From the NCBI RefSeq assembly GCF_009914755.1, contig NC_060934.1: DNA of 64,000 bases; one strand, written 5' to 3'. Below are positions 39,166 through 61,400 of this stretch, piece after piece. Origin of the DNA: the human T2T-CHM13v2.0 reference genome, Homo sapiens. The position numbers and the translations under genes were made by a program. Position 1 is the stretch's first letter; every line of letters begins with the position of its first letter. Under the pieces are notes generated by a model. The model did no database searches. It had not been told where the DNA came from and was given only the letters and a program-made list of their open reading frames with translations.

Positions 39166-40617
39166 CTATGGAAAAAAACAATATTGTCTCCGTGAGCACC
39201 GCCAACAGACCAGATGAAAGCAGACAGAAAAATAGAAAGGAACGAAACAGGAGCAAATCACACACCCCAGTTTTGCCTGTCATATCTGACTCATTGTTGG
39301 GAACAGAAGTGTGGGAGGTGGTAGAGGGGAGTGGGCGCTGGGGCTTCTGACAGACTGCTTAGCACGTGGAAACAACCCATTCTGGATCAACTGGGAGGTT
39401 CCTTGCTCATCTAACTCAGATTTCATGCAGCCCCATCTGTCCTAGATTGTAATCTGTGTTTACAGTCCTTGGCTAGATAGGTGATCATTAAGTTTTGCAA
39501 AATGCTTAGTCACACATTAGTCTAGCAAGGGGATTTTACCATTCCCAGTGCATGTACCTAACCCCAAAACAGGCACAAGAAAAACCTTCATGGCTGCCCT
39601 TCTACGTGGTGCTGTTTCCAGGATCTGGCATGGTTTATGCATGTGTTTGTTCTCCCATATGGAAAATCTTCAAGTGAAACGAATTTTGCCCAAAGTCTAC
39701 AGTAGTTTCAGTAAAGAAGGAGTGATTTTTTAGAACAAGAGAATGCTTGCTGCTGACATGTAAACAGAGTGTGGCTCAAATCGAGAAACCATGTCTGTCA
39801 TGCCAAATAGAAGACATTTACTAATAATCAGCATCTTTGCAGCCCTGGTAGTTTAACTGGAGACAGTTGCACTGCTCTGCAGCTCAGTCACTGGGGACTT
39901 GTTTTCTTTGGAGTGGAACAGGAGAAATTGTTAACATGGGAGCTTTGAGCCTAATTACCTGGTACTAGAAACGGGATGAAAATGTTAACGCACAATATGC
40001 CTGGGGTTTACTTAATGGTGTTCTGATCAACAAAGATTCCAATCAAAGAAAACTAAAAATATGAGATGCAAATCCCTAACCAAGAGAAAACAAGCCTTGG
40101 GGCATATTAATACTCTCTCCCTTGATGAAATATTGTTTTGAAACAACCTCTAATAAAGTTTACATCTCTGTGTGGACTTGGTAATGTGTTCATATTACTA
40201 ACAGCAAGGTGCAATATTTATTTGTCTCTATGAAGTCCACGGCTGGCCATAGAGTAGGATCCCATTTCTAAGGGCAACAGATGCTGACATGCATTGATGA
40301 TAAGGGTGCAGCACCATCCACACAGCAGCTGTGAGTGATGGTGGAGCAAGTGTCCAACAGCCCACAATGCTGGCTGGGAGATCTGGAAACTTCTGGGAAT
40401 AGACTAATACCAGGCAAGGCCTAACTCTGATCAAAGGTCTTGCATTTGATCACAAAGCAGCGTTCAGCAAAAACACACATTTATAGTTCATCAGGCTAAA
40501 GTGTGAGGCTACCACCTAATTAGCTATGCTACTTAAGTTTCAGTCTCACTATCTGTAAAATGGGGACAAATACAACCCCTAGAGCTGCTGTGAGGATTAA
40601 ATAAGATAAGGTATGTA

Positions 40618-40916
<299 letters not shown>

Positions 40917-41497
40917 ATCAGGTAAGTAAAGTGCTCAGAACATACTAACTCTTCAATAAATCCTTCTTATCATCATCATCATCATCACAAAACCAAGGTT
41001 CTAGTAGAGGAAGATGGGAAAAGATGAATCAAACACAATGGATTATCTCAGAAATTGGGCTCTGGTCTCTTAAAGATCCTAGCTGGATATCAACAAACAG
41101 AAGAATTTCGGTTGGTTTCAAATAACTGTGTATGGAAATAGTCTTCACTAATTTTCTGTCTTTGTAGTGATAAACTGAGTGTGTTTGAGCTGATTATCCT
41201 TTATGTTCCACCTCTAGACTGGGCAGGGAAGGGCCAGGGTGAGCACACTTCCCAGGCTCAACCAGGTGTACAAGCAGGACCCGTCACCGAGGCTCCCCAA
41301 GTCTTATGGGCAGCTCGGAAGTGGGTACTCTGTGAGCACAATCCGATCCACAGCACCAACCCAGGGCCATGGGCATAGATGTTTTTTATTTGAACTTTTT
41401 GACATACCAGTGTATTAGAGTTCCACAAAGTTTCTTCATAAACACAATGAAAGCCATAGTAAAATTTTTTAAAAATTGGTCAGCAAGACAAATTTAC

Positions 41498-41548
41498 CTG
41501 TTTCATCAATTTTAATTTCTGGGTTCTTTTTATCCAGGTCTGCTGGTT
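41498..41548 (-). CDS. NRP1: NRP1 exon 16 (51 nt, phase 1-1): KPADLDKKNPEIKIDET juxtamembrane stalk
   Basis: Peptide within ORF 41469..41660; acceptor cttgtcAG|AA, donor ACAG|GTaaat. Confidence 0.95.
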
Positions 41549-41632
41549 CTGACAAGTCAAACAAAATTGAAAGAGATATTTGAACTGCCATCAAAATATA
41601 ATGCACCAAACTACACAAACCTTTAGGTACAT

Positions 41633-50802: not shown

Positions 50803-51083
50803 AGGATAAGATGAATGCTAATTCATAGATCCTTGCCCAATTTGCTGTTTTCAAGGAGGCCAATCAGTGGCCAACTTCAAGGGGCATTACTATGATTTGC
50901 CCTATGCTTCTCGCTACTAGGGAAAGAGACATTGTTAATTCTAGAAAATAATAGCACATGTGAACGCCTGTAGTAATTCCTACCCGCCCTAAATTCACAG
51001 ACATTAGAAACCCTCCCAGTAACACAGCCTCGGAATCAAAGAGAATCTGCAAAGCCATGCAGCCGAAGTGAACTCTGTGATAC

Positions 51084-52338: not shown

Positions 52339-55300
52339 CATTGAAACAAACAGGAAGGCGCCTGGGGCATCTGGACCGTTGAACTTAAAAATAAGCCTCA
52401 AAAGAATCCCTATGAACAATAAGGGAAGTCTGGTATTAGATGCTGTATTAGGGTCAGGCCAAGACCTTATCTCATTTTGAGCTTCTTTAACTTGCTTGTG
52501 TTTATTAACAAAGTATCTCGCCTTCTGCTCTGAGCCTTGTCTCCATGGCCCCTCCCCCAATGGCAGGAGGAATTTTAATGGGAAGATTTATTGAATAGAT
52601 AAGAATGATTTACTTTGCATTTTTAGTTTATAAGGAACCCTTTTCTAGAGCTAATGTCAAATTTTGGAAGGAATCCACCATAAAAACTGTCCAAATGGAG
52701 CAGTTTGGATTCTCCCAATGATAATGTGACCTCCCAAAGGGTAGACAGAGCCAGTTTGGGAAAGTAAACTAGTAAGCTATGTGATGTGTAAAATGTGAGT
52801 ACTTTCATTTAGTGCAAACAGGCTATATTTCACAGCTGTAGTGTCATCGGAGAGATATATTTCATGTCTAGTCTATCATAGCCATGAAATAGGACTTCTT
52901 AAGGCATGGGAAACCCTCTCCAAAATTTACCACTCTTTTCCGCAGCAAGATTGAATTATGTAGATGAAGTACAGTCAACTGAACGGTGACTGAATGATTG
53001 AGCAACCTTGGATGCCAACGCCCATGACCCTGAAATGTACTGTTGCATAATCTCATGTTAGAAAATGTTAATATTGGAACATGTTAATGTGTGTGTGGTT
53101 TTGATTTTTCTCCTTAAATGTACTTTATAAAACATGCACATTCAGGATAAAGAAAGCCACCCCAGCACACACAGTTCTGCCTGTATTTACTTTGTTAATA
53201 CATTACATTTATTGTTTATAGAACAGAAAATGACATCATCCATTCTTTTGGCTCTTCATATTCTGATGATACCATAAAATGTAGGAACTTGGATATTTTT
53301 GAAATGACCAGGACATGGAACCGCTTTGCCTGAAAAAATGTTTCAGGCACTTCTCGCTTCAGAGAATGACAGTCTGCCTTTACCTTCCAATGTCCTTCCC
53401 CATCCTGTACATTTAACCAGGTGAACCGCTCTAAGTTTTTGTATTTTACTGCTCTTTTATCTTCTTGTCTTGATCATGTAACTTGTGGCAATTTGGTTAT
53501 TTAAAGGATATGTTTTTAGATCAATGCCTTTTGTTGGGGAGGGTTATGGAGTGAGAGGTTCAATGTGGAAACTTCCAGCCTGGCTAGAAAGACAAACACA
53601 CAAACCACCCATAAACATTTATAGAAAGGGAAAAGAAAGAGAGAAGGACAGAGGAAAGGAGAAAGGGAGAGAGAAAAGGAGAGAAAAAAGCAAATTAATG
53701 AATGAAACAAACATATAGGACTACTGACGTTTACGTTTTCAAAATATTACCCAAGCCCTGGCGGGGCACACAACTCTCATTAAATTCAATGGGGGTAATC
53801 CAGCTAAATCCCTTCTTGACTCTTAAAAATAGCAGGAAACAATATTCTGAACTTAAAACAAATTTACAGCCTCTGAGAGCAAGTACCAGCTGTGCTTGCC
53901 CAACCCATCTTGCCTGAAGTTGGATCATTAGCACCATATGTATGCATAAGGATTTAATTTTTATATCTGGTATTCCAAACTTCTATAGAGCAGTTTAACT
54001 CACTTGTTCATAGACTAGTCTTTCAGTCTAAACAAGCAGAGGTGCTCAGGCCCATACAATCGTAGGTGATGAATATACTCCGAACTGCTGCAGGAATGCT
54101 GGAGGAGCCTCAGAGGGTTAGAGCTCTCGCCAGAGAGAGCTAGATTAAAAATGTAAGGATCCCATCACTTGCTGGCAGAGCATTAACCAGCTTTTATGCA
54201 TCTGATTACATAAAAGTATATAAATATTATATGCCCATGGAGTTTATTATATTGATGAGAATCAGCAAGATGAAATAGTAAGACTCTGAGTTGAGTCTAT
54301 AATAGCAAAATGGAATTATGATGAAGGTTTTGAGGTCTCATTGACTGCTGCTTGTGATGATGCTTGAAGAATCTGGAGCCTGCAGAACAGTGTGGATCAA
54401 AGTATCAGGTGACTCAGGCCACTGGGTCAACTCTTCAGAGTTAGACCTGACCCCTGGCTTGAAGCATGCTCAAGTCCCCATGCAATATTCTGGGCATTGA
54501 CTTAGCCAGAAGGTGACAATCAACAGAAGTCCTTCCAGGAAGGTCAGACAGCCCATTACCCACAAACAGAGCACTTGGAGTCCAGATTCATGACTCAGAC
54601 AATGGAGAAACAGGAAAGCAAGTCAATTTGAAAAGAACTCTGCACTGACTGTGAAATGCAAACCGGACCTGACCACCCCTGATCAGTAGACCCGCGTGGT
54701 TTGGATTGAACTTGTTCAGATGGTGATAGCAACGGGTCCTACTGTTTGCAATTTGCATACCTGCCCTCTGACCACAGTAGACTCTGTGACAGGACCGACT
54801 GGCCCCTCTGAGAAGCCATCCCTTGAGTGACCTTGAGATTGTGCACAAATCAAATGTGTTAACAAAACCGCTCCTGCTCTGACAATATTGACCTTCAACA
54901 TTCAGGGAAGATTACCTAGATTTGGAATCTGATAGAACTTTCCATTTTCTACACAGCTGTTGTTCACTTTTATTTTTTTTAACGATCCCTACCCCCTTTC
55001 ATAGTCAAGGAGAAGAGAGATGAGATGAAACAAATTAGCTGGCGACTTCATAGTGGCTTTAATTACCTCTCTGGTAAGAGAAGAAACTGCAACAACAGCT
55101 AAAATGTTTGTTATATGATCAGAACTTCATTTGTTCACCTCACCCCTCTTCCCTATCCCAGAAAGGACATAGAGAACCAACTGGTGGTCACTACCCTTCA
55201 TCCACAGAAAATCTTCCTGAGGGCTGAGAACTTTCAGGAAAGGTACAAAGAAAAGGAAAGGCACGGCTTTTTTCATGAGATACCTTCAGCTATGGGAGGT

Positions 55301-56424
55301 GCCTGCGCAGTCTTTGAAAGCCACATTTTACAACTTAAGATGTGTGTAGGACGACACCATTTTCTGAATTTAGGCAGTGACTCTTCTGTTTCATCTCTTG
55401 GTTTTGTAGAGGGTGTCTGGGCTGTGTGGTAGCAGGAATTTTGTCAACCTGAACATGCTACAGGGCAGCTGGGGGTTAAGTTTGACCAAAGAGAAGTTTG
55501 TTTTGCAGTTTAATCAGGTCAACAGTGACAGCGTCCTTTAAGGAAGCATACTAATTAGGGCGGCCCTTTCTACTTTCTGCCTAGCTGGGTAGTGTCATAC
55601 CATAGAGGAAACATTGATATACACCACACGCCCCATTAATAAATGACTGCAGAAGCCAAGACTGAGTGAGCTTCAATAGAGGAAATGGGAGAAAGCTGGA
55701 AAACTGACCTGTTCACCTTAGTCTAATGATTAACTTTAAAGTATTTAAAACCTCTGATTGCTTATACTGACTGTTTCCCTTCATGTACGTCTGCCGGGAA
55801 GAATTTCACAGGATACTAACAAAACACAAAGGCCAGTGAGAGGAAGGCCACCGTTTAACCGTGACTGGCCCCTGATCGACAGCAAACCGAGGGCTTTAAA
55901 AGTCGTTACGCTTTTCTATTAATAAAAGGATGAGGAGGTGCTGTTCCCAAGGGTGTGCTTCTCTCTGTGCACAATTATAAACTCTGGTTTCCTGAACCCC
56001 GTTTTGTGGCACGCCCACTGGAAACACTGTTGTAAAACTGCCAACTCCATGGCAGGCAAAACTGACAAACTTTGCCTGCCTGGGTTTTGCAGGATTGGGA
56101 TGAAAATAAATAGTCGGGCTGTGCTGCCTGTGAGATTTCCTTCTCCTGTAGTTTGCAAACACAATCCATGTCCTAGATGTGCTGCGTTTAAACAAAGTAT
56201 GTTACTCCGTTCCTTCAGTGGAGAGCTGGGATTGTCACCATTTGGCAATTACTGATGGAGAAGGAAATCTCACTCCCTGCTGCATATACATGTGGATGAA
56301 AGGAAAGCAATATTTATGGCTCATGCTTGGAGACCAGATGCTGTGTGGCATCTCTCCTTCTAGGACTTTCAGAGAAACTGAAAGCGAGGAGCGCAGCCGC
56401 GGAGAGAAGAGAGGTACATGGAAT

Positions 56425-56452
56425 CTGTCACATTTCGTATTTTATTTGATAC
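56425..56452 (-). other. NRP1: Intron 12 read-through terminal segment of soluble s12NRP1: Gly-Ile-Lys-stop with overlapping AATAAA
   Basis: G|GT ATC AAA TAA; AATAAA at 56446-56441 overlaps the stop at 56444-56442; matches the known GIK C-terminus of soluble NRP1. Confidence 0.9.
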
Positions 56453-56512
56453 CTGATTGTATGGTGCTGTCTATGACCGTGGGCTTTTCTGTGGCCAGCA
56501 CAGTGGTGCCAC
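56453..56512 (-). CDS. NRP1: NRP1 exon 12 (60 nt, phase 1-1): GGTTVLATEKPTVIDSTIQS
   Basis: Manual translation of the minus strand; acceptor tttttcAG|GT, donor TCAG|GTatca; in frame with exons 11 and 13. Confidence 0.96.
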
Positions 56513-58410: not shown

Positions 58411-61400
58411 GTTTGCTGTTATTACGTAGGTGGTTGAGAAAGCTGTTTTTCCTTATGTCTATCCACGATGCAGATTATGGTTGGAAGTAACCTGTTATGT
58501 CCAGATACAGTATTGAACCAATTCAGGGTAAGGGAATGGGGTGGGCCCATGCCTACCATGGAAAGTTCTGGAGGTGGTTACAGGGTGCCATAATTGTGCA
58601 CTTCCCAATAATATCATTCAGTAAAGATTTGTGACGATCTTTATTTGGGACAGGCCTATCTGGCAGCTCCCACAGATCAGAAATCATGTTACATATCCAT
58701 AGCATGAATCAGAGGGCCATAAAATCGTGCTCTTGGAATGGTCTTAAGATTTCTAGGCTAATCAACTGCAGCACCAAGTCATGGTACCTCAGTTCTCCCA
58801 GCAAATATGCTGGATGAGTGGTCACATGTGTGCATGGCCTCAATAAGGCAGGCACTAGGAAGAAGGAATTATATGTATTATGGGTTAAGAAGGTGAATCT
58901 ATAATGGCAGAATTGGAGGGAGGCCAGGATACATTAGCGTTCTGTTCCCAGTGGTCTTATAGGAGAAAGATTCAAGGTGAAAATTCGCTTTTTAAAACCG
59001 ATATGCATTATCAGTTTTGCTATAGTTTGGGAGGCAAATTCCACGGTTGGGTACACACAGCTCCAACGTAAAATTTGGCTGCCTGGTGCCTTTGAGGCCA
59101 AGTGTATTATCTAATGACTTCAAAGGCATTTGCAAATGAGTAATTTCAGGGAAGCATTTTCACCTTGGCTAGCAGGTCTGGGAGAGCACATTCTACTCAT
59201 TTCCATGCATTTGGTACAGTACACCTGGAATTTGGTGTGGTTTGTAAGTAACGAGCATTTCATTACAATATTTCTCCCCTCTAGATACAAGTAGGTCACC
59301 CCAGGAGAAGAAATTAAATCCACACCACCTGTGCTAAGGAACAGACAACCCCTAAAGACAGCATTGATCCCAATTTCCATGTTCTACCTATTAGGGTTAA
59401 AGCAATAACGCTCTTGGTTTGGTTTCATCACACTAAACATCCACGTTTGTAGTCCTGACAGCAAAACCTATGCCAGAATTAGCAAAAAGGATGCAAAATT
59501 GCTTGTGAGCATAGGAGATGTGTAGTTTCCATATAAAAAGGTGTCTGGGTTAGGTGAGGTTTTTGCCTCTTGCAAACAATGGCATGTGAGCACATCCATT
59601 TTCAGAAAAGAATAGCAAATGGTTTTGTAAAGTAAAATATGTTTTAAAAAGAAAAAGACTGCCTTCTTGCAATAATGAATATGAAGCAGGAGAATGTCTT
59701 CCAAAATGGCTTCTTCTTGATGGAGGTGTGGGGCAGGCCTTATCAACATCCTCAGCGGTTCTTAGTATATGAGAGTATTTATAGAATTATTGAGACAAAC
59801 GTGCTGATCTGGGAATAACTCTTTTTTTCACCATGCTAATATGTAAAAAGAAAAAATCAGAATGAACTTTCTTCTATCTACCAAAGAAATAATTGAAACA
59901 CTGTAGGTAAAGCAAAACCTTATAGTTTTGAAAGGTTGTCAGTGTTTCCACTATAAATGACCCATTTTCTGTGGTTTGTAACTCGCTGCCATACACAATT
60001 TGCTCCAGGCTAACATACTCGCCCTATTTCATTCAAAGCCTTCAGTTTCAATTGATTCAGTCATGAACTAATGCAAAAATGAGAAGGCTGGTTGTTCTGA
60101 TATGAGGAGTAAATCTGAGGCTTTGTTTCTAATCAATATTAACTGACCACTTTAGGGTTTATGAAGAAAAGAACCCCTTCCACAAGAGGGCAATTGAAAG
60201 GGCACACTGGGATCCTGCAATCATTCCTTTTTTATGAGAAATTTCACTATGGATGTGTGACGGGGTCTGTAAAAAGCCTGAGGTTTGTGGCAGAGTGTTT
60301 ACAGGCAACCCCGGGAAGCTTCCAGAGGACTTGGTTCATGGAATAGTACTCTGTTTTTTATATCAGTGGTTGAGTTTTCAACTTGAACTTGACATGTTAC
60401 ACAGAAAATGTCTCTGCATTAATTAATCTAAGTTTTGTGGCTTGTGGCTGCTTGTATACAAGATTTGCATTCAAAAGCTCATAGCAATGTGACATTTATT
60501 GGCCATATGAATGTAAATGATTATCCTGGAAATTTGGAGAGAGACAGCTTTAGGAGGTGGGATTTAAATGTAAACTCAGTTCACAGTACTAAATTTCTGG
60601 GACAGATTTTCAATTTTTTTTTCTTTCTTTTACTCTTTATTCCATCTTAGAGTGCAGAGCCCTCTCACTCCTTCAGAGGAGAGCTTTTGAAATAATTGGA
60701 AATGTACTCTAGGACACTTCCTTCCAGATTTTGTACGAATGCATTAGCCAATAACATGGCTTTATTATGAAGTTACATGGTAACGCCTTCAGTTTTGCCC
60801 ATGGAAATTAATTATGTGGGCTCTCCGAGTCCCTTCTGGGTAAAAATGCAGACCTGCATTCAAAAGCTCATGTTTAATCTCAAATGAGAGTCAGATGCTA
60901 TTGAAACTGCGTTTTGACCCAGGGAGCAGTAAAAGTCCCACGATACCTTTTGCAACCACAGGGTGAAAACCCTAGTGCCTTGGCCAATTTCCAAATGGTA
61001 TAATCCCATTTCTCCACTTGCCTAATATTTCCTCTGCCATTCCAAGTGGAAGAGAAGGTCATTTCCTAGCTTTTAGGGTTTTAGGAGATTAGAGAGTAAT
61101 ACTCTAGATTAATTAGTGAGACATTTGGCACACAACATCTCTGATGCATTTGCTGGTCGGTGGTGATGTGAAATAGCAGCTAATTCTGCCTTTGTAAATG
61201 TTAATGTACAATGATTTACCAAATCCCAACTTAAAAGCCGCACTTCAAATATAAGCCTAACTTTATCCATTTGTTGGATAAAGGATCCACTCAAAAAAAC
61301 TTGTCCTCATTAGAAAATGAAAATAAACATTCTGAAGTGTGTGGTTACGTAGGGGTGGTGCACGTGTTATTGGGGGGGGGTCTGAAAATAATGAAAATAA

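What the first reader, a model, noticed from the sequence alone, without database searches (positions are those of the whole stretch)
41340..41497. Candidate undescribed soluble NRP1 isoform: intron 16 stop + AATAAA + GU-rich element
Seen: reading through the exon 16 donor gives G-K-F-V-L-L-T-N-F-TAA (stop at 41471-41469). On the minus strand this is followed by a canonical AATAAA at 41390-41385, a CA about 15 nt later, and a GU-rich tract (GGGTTGGTGCTGTGG...ATTGTG). This is the same layout that makes s11 and s12 NRP1. Known: the described soluble isoforms stop before the MAM domain. Inference: cleavage here would give a secreted ~836-aa complete ectodomain (a1a2b1b2 + MAM + stalk) with no transmembrane helix, NMD-immune because it is a terminal exon. 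It would be a different kind of decoy for VEGF165/SEMA3. I do not recall such an isoform being described; AATAAA also occurs by chance in AT-rich introns.
Basis: partly seen in the sequence, partly recalled or inferred. Interest (0 to 1): 0.8.

Follow-up and report, generated by a model that had tools for sequence, protein, structure and literature searches.

The report
Latent poly(A) site, NRP1 last intron
Just past exon 16 of the human neuropilin-1 gene there is a real stop codon followed by a well-formed but probably silenced polyadenylation signal, which could make a secreted full-ectodomain receptor, though nothing I could reach shows it is used.

Summary
Exon 16 ends CAG|GTAAAT. Read-through gives G-K-F-V-L-L-T-N-F-TAA (stop at 41471-41469). 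AATAAA lies at 41390-41385, a CA at 41371-41370, and a GU-rich tract at 41363-41337.

The hexamer alone is ordinary, about one per 955 nt on this strand. Its setting is not. Only 2 of 6 donors in the window have a hexamer within about 110 nt, and the other is the known s12NRP1 site. Its downstream GU-richness falls in the top 2.5-5% of 200 hexamers.

Evidence for use is missing. No RefSeq transcript ends here, no paper I found describes it, and two IPA catalogues list other NRP1 sites or none. The exon 16 donor is the strongest in the window, and a second donor-like motif sits 17 nt before the hexamer. Intron 16 is only 2.3 kb. These features suggest U1 silences the site.

Best reading: a competent but suppressed cryptic poly(A) site with no or trace use. 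Poly(A)-site data and cross-species conservation could not be tested. A near-complete soluble ectodomain is already known from ADAM shedding. Interest is low to moderate.

The parts
41498..41548 (-). NRP1 exon 16 (51 nt; encodes ...PADLDKKNPEIKIDET plus the first base of a Gly codon)
   Evidence: Hub annotation; sequence; translation
41492..41500 (-). Exon 16 donor CAG|GTAAAT. It matches the consensus at 8 of 9 positions and is the best of the 8 donor rows scored in the window.
   Evidence: 8/9; U1 duplex -8.3 kcal/mol, the lowest of the rows
41469..41497 (-). Read-through codons (G)KFVLLTNF followed by TAA (41471-41469)
41402..41410 (-). Donor-like motif CTG|GTATGT (7 of 9 matches). Its GT starts at 41407, 17 nt upstream of the hexamer. 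It may be a second U1 binding site or a cryptic donor.
   Evidence: the only other motif with at least 6/9 matches in 41560-41200. Motifs with at least 7/9 occur 40 times among 3245 GTs on this strand, about 1 per 1600 nt.
41385..41390 (-). Canonical poly(A) signal hexamer AATAAA, 107 nt into intron 16. It is followed by an A-rich run, which carries an internal-priming risk.
41370..41371 (-). Predicted cleavage dinucleotide CA, 15 nt after the hexamer (inferred, not observed)
   Evidence: (CA within 10-30 nt = True)
41337..41363 (-). GU-rich downstream element with a G-run. Best 20-nt G+T fraction is 0.85, with 12 GT/TG dinucleotides in +12..+55.
39166..41497 (-). Intron 16, the last intron of NRP1 (2,332 nt). 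Plain retention would encode the same 836-aa protein.
   Evidence: Hub annotation; (length; AATAAA at 41390 and 40222; no ATTAAA)

Best explanation
This is a latent, sequence-competent cleavage and polyadenylation site. It lies 107 nt into the last intron of NRP1 and is normally overridden by splicing.

The proposed mechanism has three steps.
1. CPSF could read the AAUAAA at 41390-41385. CstF could bind the GU-rich tract at 41363-41337. Cleavage would fall near the CA at 41371-41370.
2. U1 snRNP bound to the near-consensus exon 16 donor about 110 nt upstream suppresses 3' processing (telescripting). U1 may also bind the donor-like CTG|GTATGT 17 nt before the hexamer. The short 2.3-kb intron is then spliced to exon 17, giving full-length NRP1.
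3. Only when the donor or U1 is blocked, mutated or limiting would the site yield an mRNA for an 836-aa secreted NRP1. That protein would comprise a1a2, b1b2, MAM and part of the stalk, ending in KFVLLTNF.

The elements and their positions are shown. That the site can be cleaved, that U1 silences it, and that use is absent or at trace level are all inferred.
For: - All elements are present at the stated coordinates.
- The region is single-copy in its genome.
- It shows no special RNA structure: z = -0.03, and 92 of 200 shuffles fold at least as well. It has no Rfam match.
- Competence: the downstream G+T score of 0.85 is reached by 10 of 200 hexamers, and the GT/TG count of 12 by 5 of 200. The values resemble those of the annotated alternative terminal-exon site at 53213 (0.9 and 11).
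- Suppression: the exon 16 donor matches the consensus at 8/9 and has the most stable U1 duplex of 8 donor rows. The exon 12 donor, which allows s12NRP1, matches only 6/9. A second 7/9 donor-like motif lies 17 nt before the hexamer. The intron is only 2,332 nt.
- It is established knowledge (recalled; search listing only) that U1 suppresses nearby intronic poly(A) sites, and that used intronic sites favour weak donors and large introns.
- No evidence of use: no RefSeq exon among the listed transcripts ends in intron 16 (hub table). NRP1 occurs 0 times in the immune IPA table. The 4 InPACT novel NRP1 sites all lie elsewhere. The GTEx-based NRP1 IPA event maps to window 53170/53186, not here. 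The tail KFVLLTNF appears in 0 papers. None of the 2 scored proteins, out of 15 candidates, carries the tail.
Against: - The arrangement is better than a typical chance hexamer. At the threshold G+T >= 0.8 and GT/TG >= 10, only 2 of 200 hexamers pass. One is a verified intronic poly(A) site and the other is this one.
- Only 2 of 6 donors have a hexamer within ~110 nt, and the other is the proven s12 site. The remaining four have theirs 816-1516 nt in. That could mean the site is maintained.
- My scores are home-made and were chosen after seeing the candidate. They pass only 1 of the 3 annotated sites I printed.
- The negative catalogues are weak evidence. One covers immune cells. The other lists only 'novel' calls from fetal bone-marrow single-cell data. 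The RefSeq rows in the hub table also show no exon ending near 60613, where InPACT calls the s11NRP1 read-through, although s11NRP1 is described in print.
- The protein database clusters sequences at 90% identity, which would hide an isoform differing by 8 residues.
- Endothelial, placental and neuronal 3'-end data were not available.
Confidence: 0.55

Rival explanations
1. This is a real, regulated minor isoform. In some cell types or states, cleavage at this site makes a stable mRNA for a secreted 836-aa NRP1 with the MAM domain. It would act as a ligand trap, or as a dimerising decoy for VEGF165 and SEMA3, and would contribute to the ~120 kDa soluble NRP1 now credited to shedding.
For: - The core elements and spacing are canonical.
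- The GU-rich element ranks in the top 2.5-5%.
- The hexamer is unusually close to the donor, as at the s12 site.
- The gene already makes soluble forms by intronic polyadenylation at three other places in this window.
- The stop lies in what would be a terminal exon, so there is no downstream junction.
- A ~120 kDa soluble ectodomain species exists.
Against: - No transcript, catalogue entry or paper supports it (hub table).
- It sits behind the strongest donor in the window, with a second U1-like site next to the hexamer.
- The intron is short.
- In HUVEC, release of the ~120 kDa species was inhibited by ADAM10 knockdown or inhibition. That points to proteolysis as the source.
Confidence: 0.12
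2. This is pure coincidence with no competence. An AT-rich intron happens to contain AATAAA near GU-rich sequence, and the site is never cleaved, even when splicing is blocked.
For: - AATAAA occurs about once per 955 nt on this strand.
- In-frame stops soon after donors are the rule.
- There is no UGUA motif in the 100 nt upstream.
- With loose thresholds, the chance of a comparable site near one of 6 donors is about 0.10.
- If the exon 16 donor were blocked, the cryptic donor at 41407 could take over in place of cleavage.
Against: The hexamer, the 15-nt spacing to a CA, and a GU-rich plus G-run element 8-34 nt after the CA make up the textbook core of a working site. That context matches or exceeds three annotated, used sites in the same window.
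Confidence: 0.2
3. The same 836-aa protein arises, if at all, from simple retention of intron 16 with the normal gene 3' end, not from cleavage at this hexamer. Intron 16 is the last intron, so a retained-intron mRNA also has no junction after the TAA.
For: Intron 16 lies between exon 16 and the last exon (hub table). The stop at 41471-41469 is reached regardless of where the mRNA ends.
Against: I had no data on retention. Such an mRNA would carry a 3' UTR of about 5 kb (window 41468 down to 36293), and retained-intron transcripts are often held in the nucleus (general knowledge). The donor is strong.
Confidence: 0.08

Closest known systems
s12NRP1 (NRP1 isoform b; intron 12 read-through)
   Same: Same gene and same principle. 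The donor is read through, the split Gly codon is completed by intron bases, a short new tail follows (G-I-K), then a stop and an AATAAA that ends the mRNA. The annotated terminal exon is 56424-56512 (hub table).
   Different: - The s12 hexamer lies 6 nt into the intron and overlaps the stop, right beside a weak donor (CAG|GTATCA, 6/9).
- Here the hexamer is 107 nt in, behind an 8/9 donor.
- s12 ends before the MAM domain; this product would include it.
- s12 is documented as mRNA and protein; this one is not.
s11NRP1 and the intron-12 alternative terminal exon (53170-53583)
   Same: Both are intronic polyadenylation products of NRP1 within this window. The 53213 hexamer has a GU-rich downstream element like the candidate's. 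The s11 read-through of 83 codons, and a catalogue 3' end at about window 60613 behind AATAAA 60641, were recovered.
   Different: Both have support from annotation or catalogues (hub table). Both truncate before the MAM domain. One is a skipped-type terminal exon with its own acceptor.
ADAM9/10/17-shed NRP1 ectodomain (~120 kDa sNRP1)
   Same: The protein content is nearly the same: most of the extracellular domain, soluble, and proposed as a decoy (passages of PMC6092111).
   Different: It is made by proteolysis of the membrane protein, not by RNA processing. Its C-terminus would differ, with no KFVLLTNF tail. It also leaves C-terminal membrane fragments that signal.
sFLT1 and other soluble decoy receptors made by intronic polyadenylation; U1 telescripting of cryptic intronic poly(A) sites
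   Same: A general mechanism in which splicing and intronic 3' processing compete to decide between membrane and soluble receptor (search listings only; otherwise recalled).
   Different: sFLT1 use is abundant and regulated through conserved intronic elements. No use or conservation is shown here.

Membership tests
Composite-terminal-exon (intronic polyadenylation) isoform | Read-through of an internal donor into an in-frame stop | tested here: met
   GKFVLLTNF then TAA at 41471-41469
Composite-terminal-exon (intronic polyadenylation) isoform | Canonical hexamer 10-30 nt upstream of a cleavage dinucleotide, with a U/GU-rich downstream element | tested here: met
   (CA present; G+T 0.85; 12 GT/TG)
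Composite-terminal-exon (intronic polyadenylation) isoform | Observed polyadenylated 3' ends or transcripts ending at the site | tested here: inconclusive
   - No RefSeq exon ends in intron 16 (hub table).
- NRP1 occurs 0 times in the table of PMC5928244.
- 0 of 4 InPACT NRP1 sites lie in intron 16.
- Paper reading closed before two further supplements could be searched.
Composite-terminal-exon (intronic polyadenylation) isoform | Typical context of used sites, a weak donor and/or a large intron (a tendency, not a strict criterion; recalled) | tested here: not met
   The donor matches 8/9, the best in the window. The intron is 2,332 nt.
Composite-terminal-exon (intronic polyadenylation) isoform | Conservation of hexamer and stop in other mammals | not testable with these tools
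   No mammalian genome other than the window's own is held. A long-shot scan of prokaryote contigs for contaminating orthologues gave 14 loci, all chance matches confined to the 24-28 nt pattern.
Described spliced soluble NRP1 isoforms (s11, s12, sIII, sIV) | Contain a1a2 and b1b2 but lack the MAM (c) domain; 551-704 aa | tested here: not met
   The stop lies after exon 16, downstream of the MAM-coding exons, giving 836 aa. The definition comes from passages.
U1-suppressed cryptic intronic poly(A) site | A poly(A) signal close downstream of a strong U1 binding site | tested here: met
   An 8/9 donor lies 107 nt upstream, and a 7/9 donor-like motif 17 nt upstream
U1-suppressed cryptic intronic poly(A) site | Activation on U1 or donor blockade | not testable with these tools
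   Needs an experiment, or U1-inhibition 3'-end data

The most novel reading that the evidence does not exclude
NRP1 has a fifth, undescribed soluble isoform and the first that retains the MAM domain. It would be made by polyadenylation 107 nt into the last intron and held in check by U1 at the exon 16 donor. It would be released in particular states such as U1 limitation, rapid transcriptional induction or donor variants. It would supply part of the ~120 kDa circulating NRP1 now attributed wholly to ADAM shedding, and could be identified by its unique C-terminal KFVLLTNF tail.
Probability: 0.12. Interest if true: 0.55.

Novelty: new member of a known kind. Interest (0 to 1): 0.25.

Why it matters
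NRP1 is a co-receptor for VEGF165 and class-3 semaphorins and a drug target. Its soluble forms act as natural antagonists.

If this site were used, three things would follow.
- It would be an RNA-level route to a full-ectodomain soluble NRP1 that includes the MAM domain.
- It would have a unique C-terminal peptide, which would let assays tell it apart from the shed ectodomain.
- An antisense oligo at the exon 16 donor could then switch cells from membrane to decoy NRP1, as has been done for FLT1.

As it stands this is a sound, cheaply testable hypothesis rather than a discovery. The protein it would make closely resembles a known shedding product. The local sequence argues that the site is normally silenced.

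Tried and rejected
- translated the region in the wrong frame and gave nothing useful. Searches replaced it.
- The notes of earlier agents were closed.
- The 25-aa tail query was too short for the protein search. I resent a 50-aa translation of unaltered window DNA, which includes 24 intron-15-derived residues. It gave 15 candidates and 2 scored hits, neither with the tail. One is an 836-aa tamarin gene model whose length is a coincidence. It reads intron 15 into exon 16 and then continues normally into the transmembrane exon.
- Paper searches found no intron-16 NRP1 isoform. The 'intron 16' hit that I opened refers to ACE. Two NRP1 hits were in reference lists only.
- The NRP1 event in PMC13187750 maps to window 53170/53186.
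- The IPAFinder supplement showed only gene-model rows in the 2 passages I saw. Its file 1 was not searched and its file 2 had been cut when stored.
- One search failed on a syntax error and was resent. Only the listing from that search was used.
- Paper reading closed, before the supplements of PMC13322065 (IPA induced by splicing inhibition) and PMC10227441 (GTEx IPA) could be searched. Both may bear on whether the site is used.
- One search did not retrieve the paper I recall on a ~120 kDa circulating NRP1. That paper is not cited as seen.
- A scan of prokaryote contigs for contaminating mammalian orthologues gave only chance matches.
- RNA structure and Rfam showed nothing.
- I rejected a transposon-borne poly(A) signal. 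The stretch is single-copy and is not among the masked stretches of 100 or more in the hub's 'longest' list.

Full report
**What is there.** I read the minus strand of window 41200-41620.
- Exon 16 of NRP1 (41548-41498) ends ...GAAACAG and is followed by GTAAAT.
- Exon 16 ends on the first base of a Gly codon. I derived the frame from the annotated coding lengths. The last exon holds 290 coding nt, which is 2 nt + 95 codons + stop.
- Intron bases complete that codon. They then encode K-F-V-L-L-T-N-F before TAA at 41471-41469.
- AATAAA sits at 41390-41385, 107 nt into the intron.
- A CA lies at 41371-41370, 15 nt after the hexamer.
- The next 35 nt are GU-rich and include a G-run (41363-41337).

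With a 923-aa canonical protein (a length I recall, not from a call), the Gly is residue 828 and the product would be 836 aa.

**Is it more than chance?**
- The hexamer alone is not unusual. AATAAA occurs 72 times on the minus strand of the window and 29 times in the 27,708-nt genic part, about 1 per 955 nt. ATTAAA occurs 22 times there.
- Early in-frame stops are the rule. Five of the six read-throughs in the window stop within 26 codons.
- Hexamer position is unusual. The first AATAAA or ATTAAA after the six internal donors lies at +816, +6, +1244, +1516, +927 and +107 nt. The +6 case is the proven s12NRP1 site and the +107 case is this candidate.
- The downstream context is unusual. I scored all 200 AATAAA/ATTAAA on both strands with a home-made measure. 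The candidate's best 20-nt G+T fraction of 0.85 is reached by 10 of 200. Its 12 GT/TG dinucleotides in +12..+55 are reached by 5 of 200.
- With a CA required, the numbers passing are as follows:

| G+T threshold | GT/TG threshold | Hexamers passing (of 200) |
|---|---|---|
| >= 0.75 | >= 8 | 11 |
| >= 0.8 | >= 8 | 5 |
| >= 0.8 | >= 10 | 2 |
| >= 0.85 | >= 12 | 1 |

- At the third level, the two that pass are the candidate and the annotated intron-12 terminal-exon site (hexamer 53213). These counts put the chance of such a site within 200 nt of any of the six donors at about 0.01-0.10.

There are two caveats. I chose the measures after seeing the candidate. The s12 site (0.6, 3) and the main gene end (0.7, 4) score low, so the measure detects only 1 of the 3 annotated sites I printed.

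**Surroundings.**
- The stretch is single-copy in its own genome.
- It has no Rfam match.
- It folds no better than shuffled sequence: z = -0.03, and 92 of 200 shuffles fold at least as well.
- No UGUA lies in the 100 nt upstream.

**Features arguing for silencing.**
- The exon 16 donor CAG|GTAAAT matches the consensus at 8 of 9 positions. It gives the most stable duplex with the U1 5' end among eight donor rows, at -8.3 kcal/mol. The exon 12 donor that permits s12NRP1 matches only 6 of 9.
- A second donor-like motif, CTG|GTATGT (7/9), starts 17 nt upstream of the hexamer. Motifs this good occur 40 times among 3,245 GTs on this strand, about 1 per 1,600 nt.
- Intron 16 is only 2,332 nt.

Established knowledge says U1 snRNP bound near a poly(A) signal suppresses cleavage. 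It also says used intronic sites tend to have weak donors and large introns. I recall this and saw only the search listing of relevant papers. On that basis this context predicts suppression. The 41407 motif could also serve as a cryptic donor if the real donor were blocked.

**Evidence of use.** I could reach none.
- The hub's RefSeq table lists no exon among the listed transcripts that ends in intron 16.
- The immune-cell IPA table of PMC5928244, the one xlsx supplement that could be read, does not contain NRP1.
- InPACT's Supplementary Data 4 lists novel IPA sites in fetal bone-marrow single-cell data for 12 cell types. It has four NRP1 sites at hg38 33201810, 33253019, 33255443 and 33328907. 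The first maps to window ~60613, the s11 read-through behind AATAAA 60641. All four were called in pDC, and none lies in intron 16.
- The GTEx-based NRP1 event in PMC13187750 maps to window 53170/53186.
- The IPAFinder supplement showed only gene-model rows in the two passages I saw. One of its files was not searched and one had been cut when stored.
The supplements of PMC13322065 and PMC10227441 stayed unread.

**Novelty in print.**
- Six searches found no intron-16 NRP1 isoform.
- The string KFVLLTNF occurs in 0 papers.
- Passages of a 2019 review list six isoforms: s11, s12, sIII, sIV, delta-E16 and delta-7. Passages of a 2020 review list the same soluble forms.
- Passages of PMC6092111 state that the spliced soluble forms are 551-704 aa and lack the MAM domain.
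- A protein-database search with 50 aa translated from unaltered window DNA gave 15 candidates and 2 scored hits, neither with the tail. This is weak evidence, because the database clusters at 90% identity and held few vertebrate NRP1 entries.

**Protein-level context.** PMC6092111 (passages) reports a ~120 kDa soluble NRP1 holding most of the extracellular domain. It is released from endothelial cells by VEGF-stimulated cleavage that depends on ADAM10, and ADAM9 also takes part in NRP1 cleavage. The paper cites earlier work on ADAM10/17 shedding in axons. The hypothetical isoform would therefore not be a new kind of molecule functionally. It would differ in origin and in its C-terminus.

**Intron retention.** Intron 16 is the last intron. 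Plain retention would encode the same protein, also with no downstream exon junction. The 'NMD-immune' argument therefore does not depend on the hexamer.

**Verdict.** The best-supported reading is a competent but U1-suppressed cryptic poly(A) site with no or trace use (0.55).

| Rival reading | Confidence |
|---|---|
| Real regulated isoform | 0.12 |
| Incompetent coincidence | 0.20 |
| Intron retention as the route to the same protein | 0.08 |

Conservation could not be tested. No other mammalian genome is held, and a scan of prokaryote contigs gave 14 chance hits only. The decisive data are 3'-end clusters, long reads, RACE after donor or U1 blockade, and conservation. All of these are easy to obtain elsewhere.

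Noticed in passing
P0003 (protein database hit): An 836-aa tamarin protein named 'Asparagine-rich protein' by its source is a faulty NRP1 gene model. It lacks the N-terminal CUB region and carries intron-derived stretches, including the residues encoded just upstream of exon 16. It then continues normally into the transmembrane exon. Its length equals the predicted isoform's by coincidence. It also shows that the 3' end of intron 15 is near-identical in a New World monkey.
   Followed up: partly
window 60613-60641 (minus): The catalogue 3' end of the s11NRP1 read-through (hg38 33201810) lies 28 nt after AATAAA 60641. It sits directly after a long A-rich run, so part of that signal could be internal priming.
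   Followed up: partly
window 56444-56452 and 51075-51083 (minus): The donors of exons 12 and 13 are identical (CAG|GTATCA, 6/9) and weak. Only exon 12 has a hexamer right behind it, at +6 nt; for exon 13 the first hexamer is at +1244 nt. This fits s12NRP1 being the read-through form that is seen.
   Followed up: partly
whole window: AATAAA is strand-asymmetric, with 72 on the minus (NRP1 sense) strand against 42 on the plus strand. ATTAAA is 49 against 37. The base composition of the two strands is nearly equal.
   Followed up: no
window 41381-41390 (minus): The candidate hexamer runs into an A-rich stretch in which 9 of 10 bases are A. Oligo(dT)-primed data could show false 3' ends here from unspliced pre-mRNA.
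   Followed up: no
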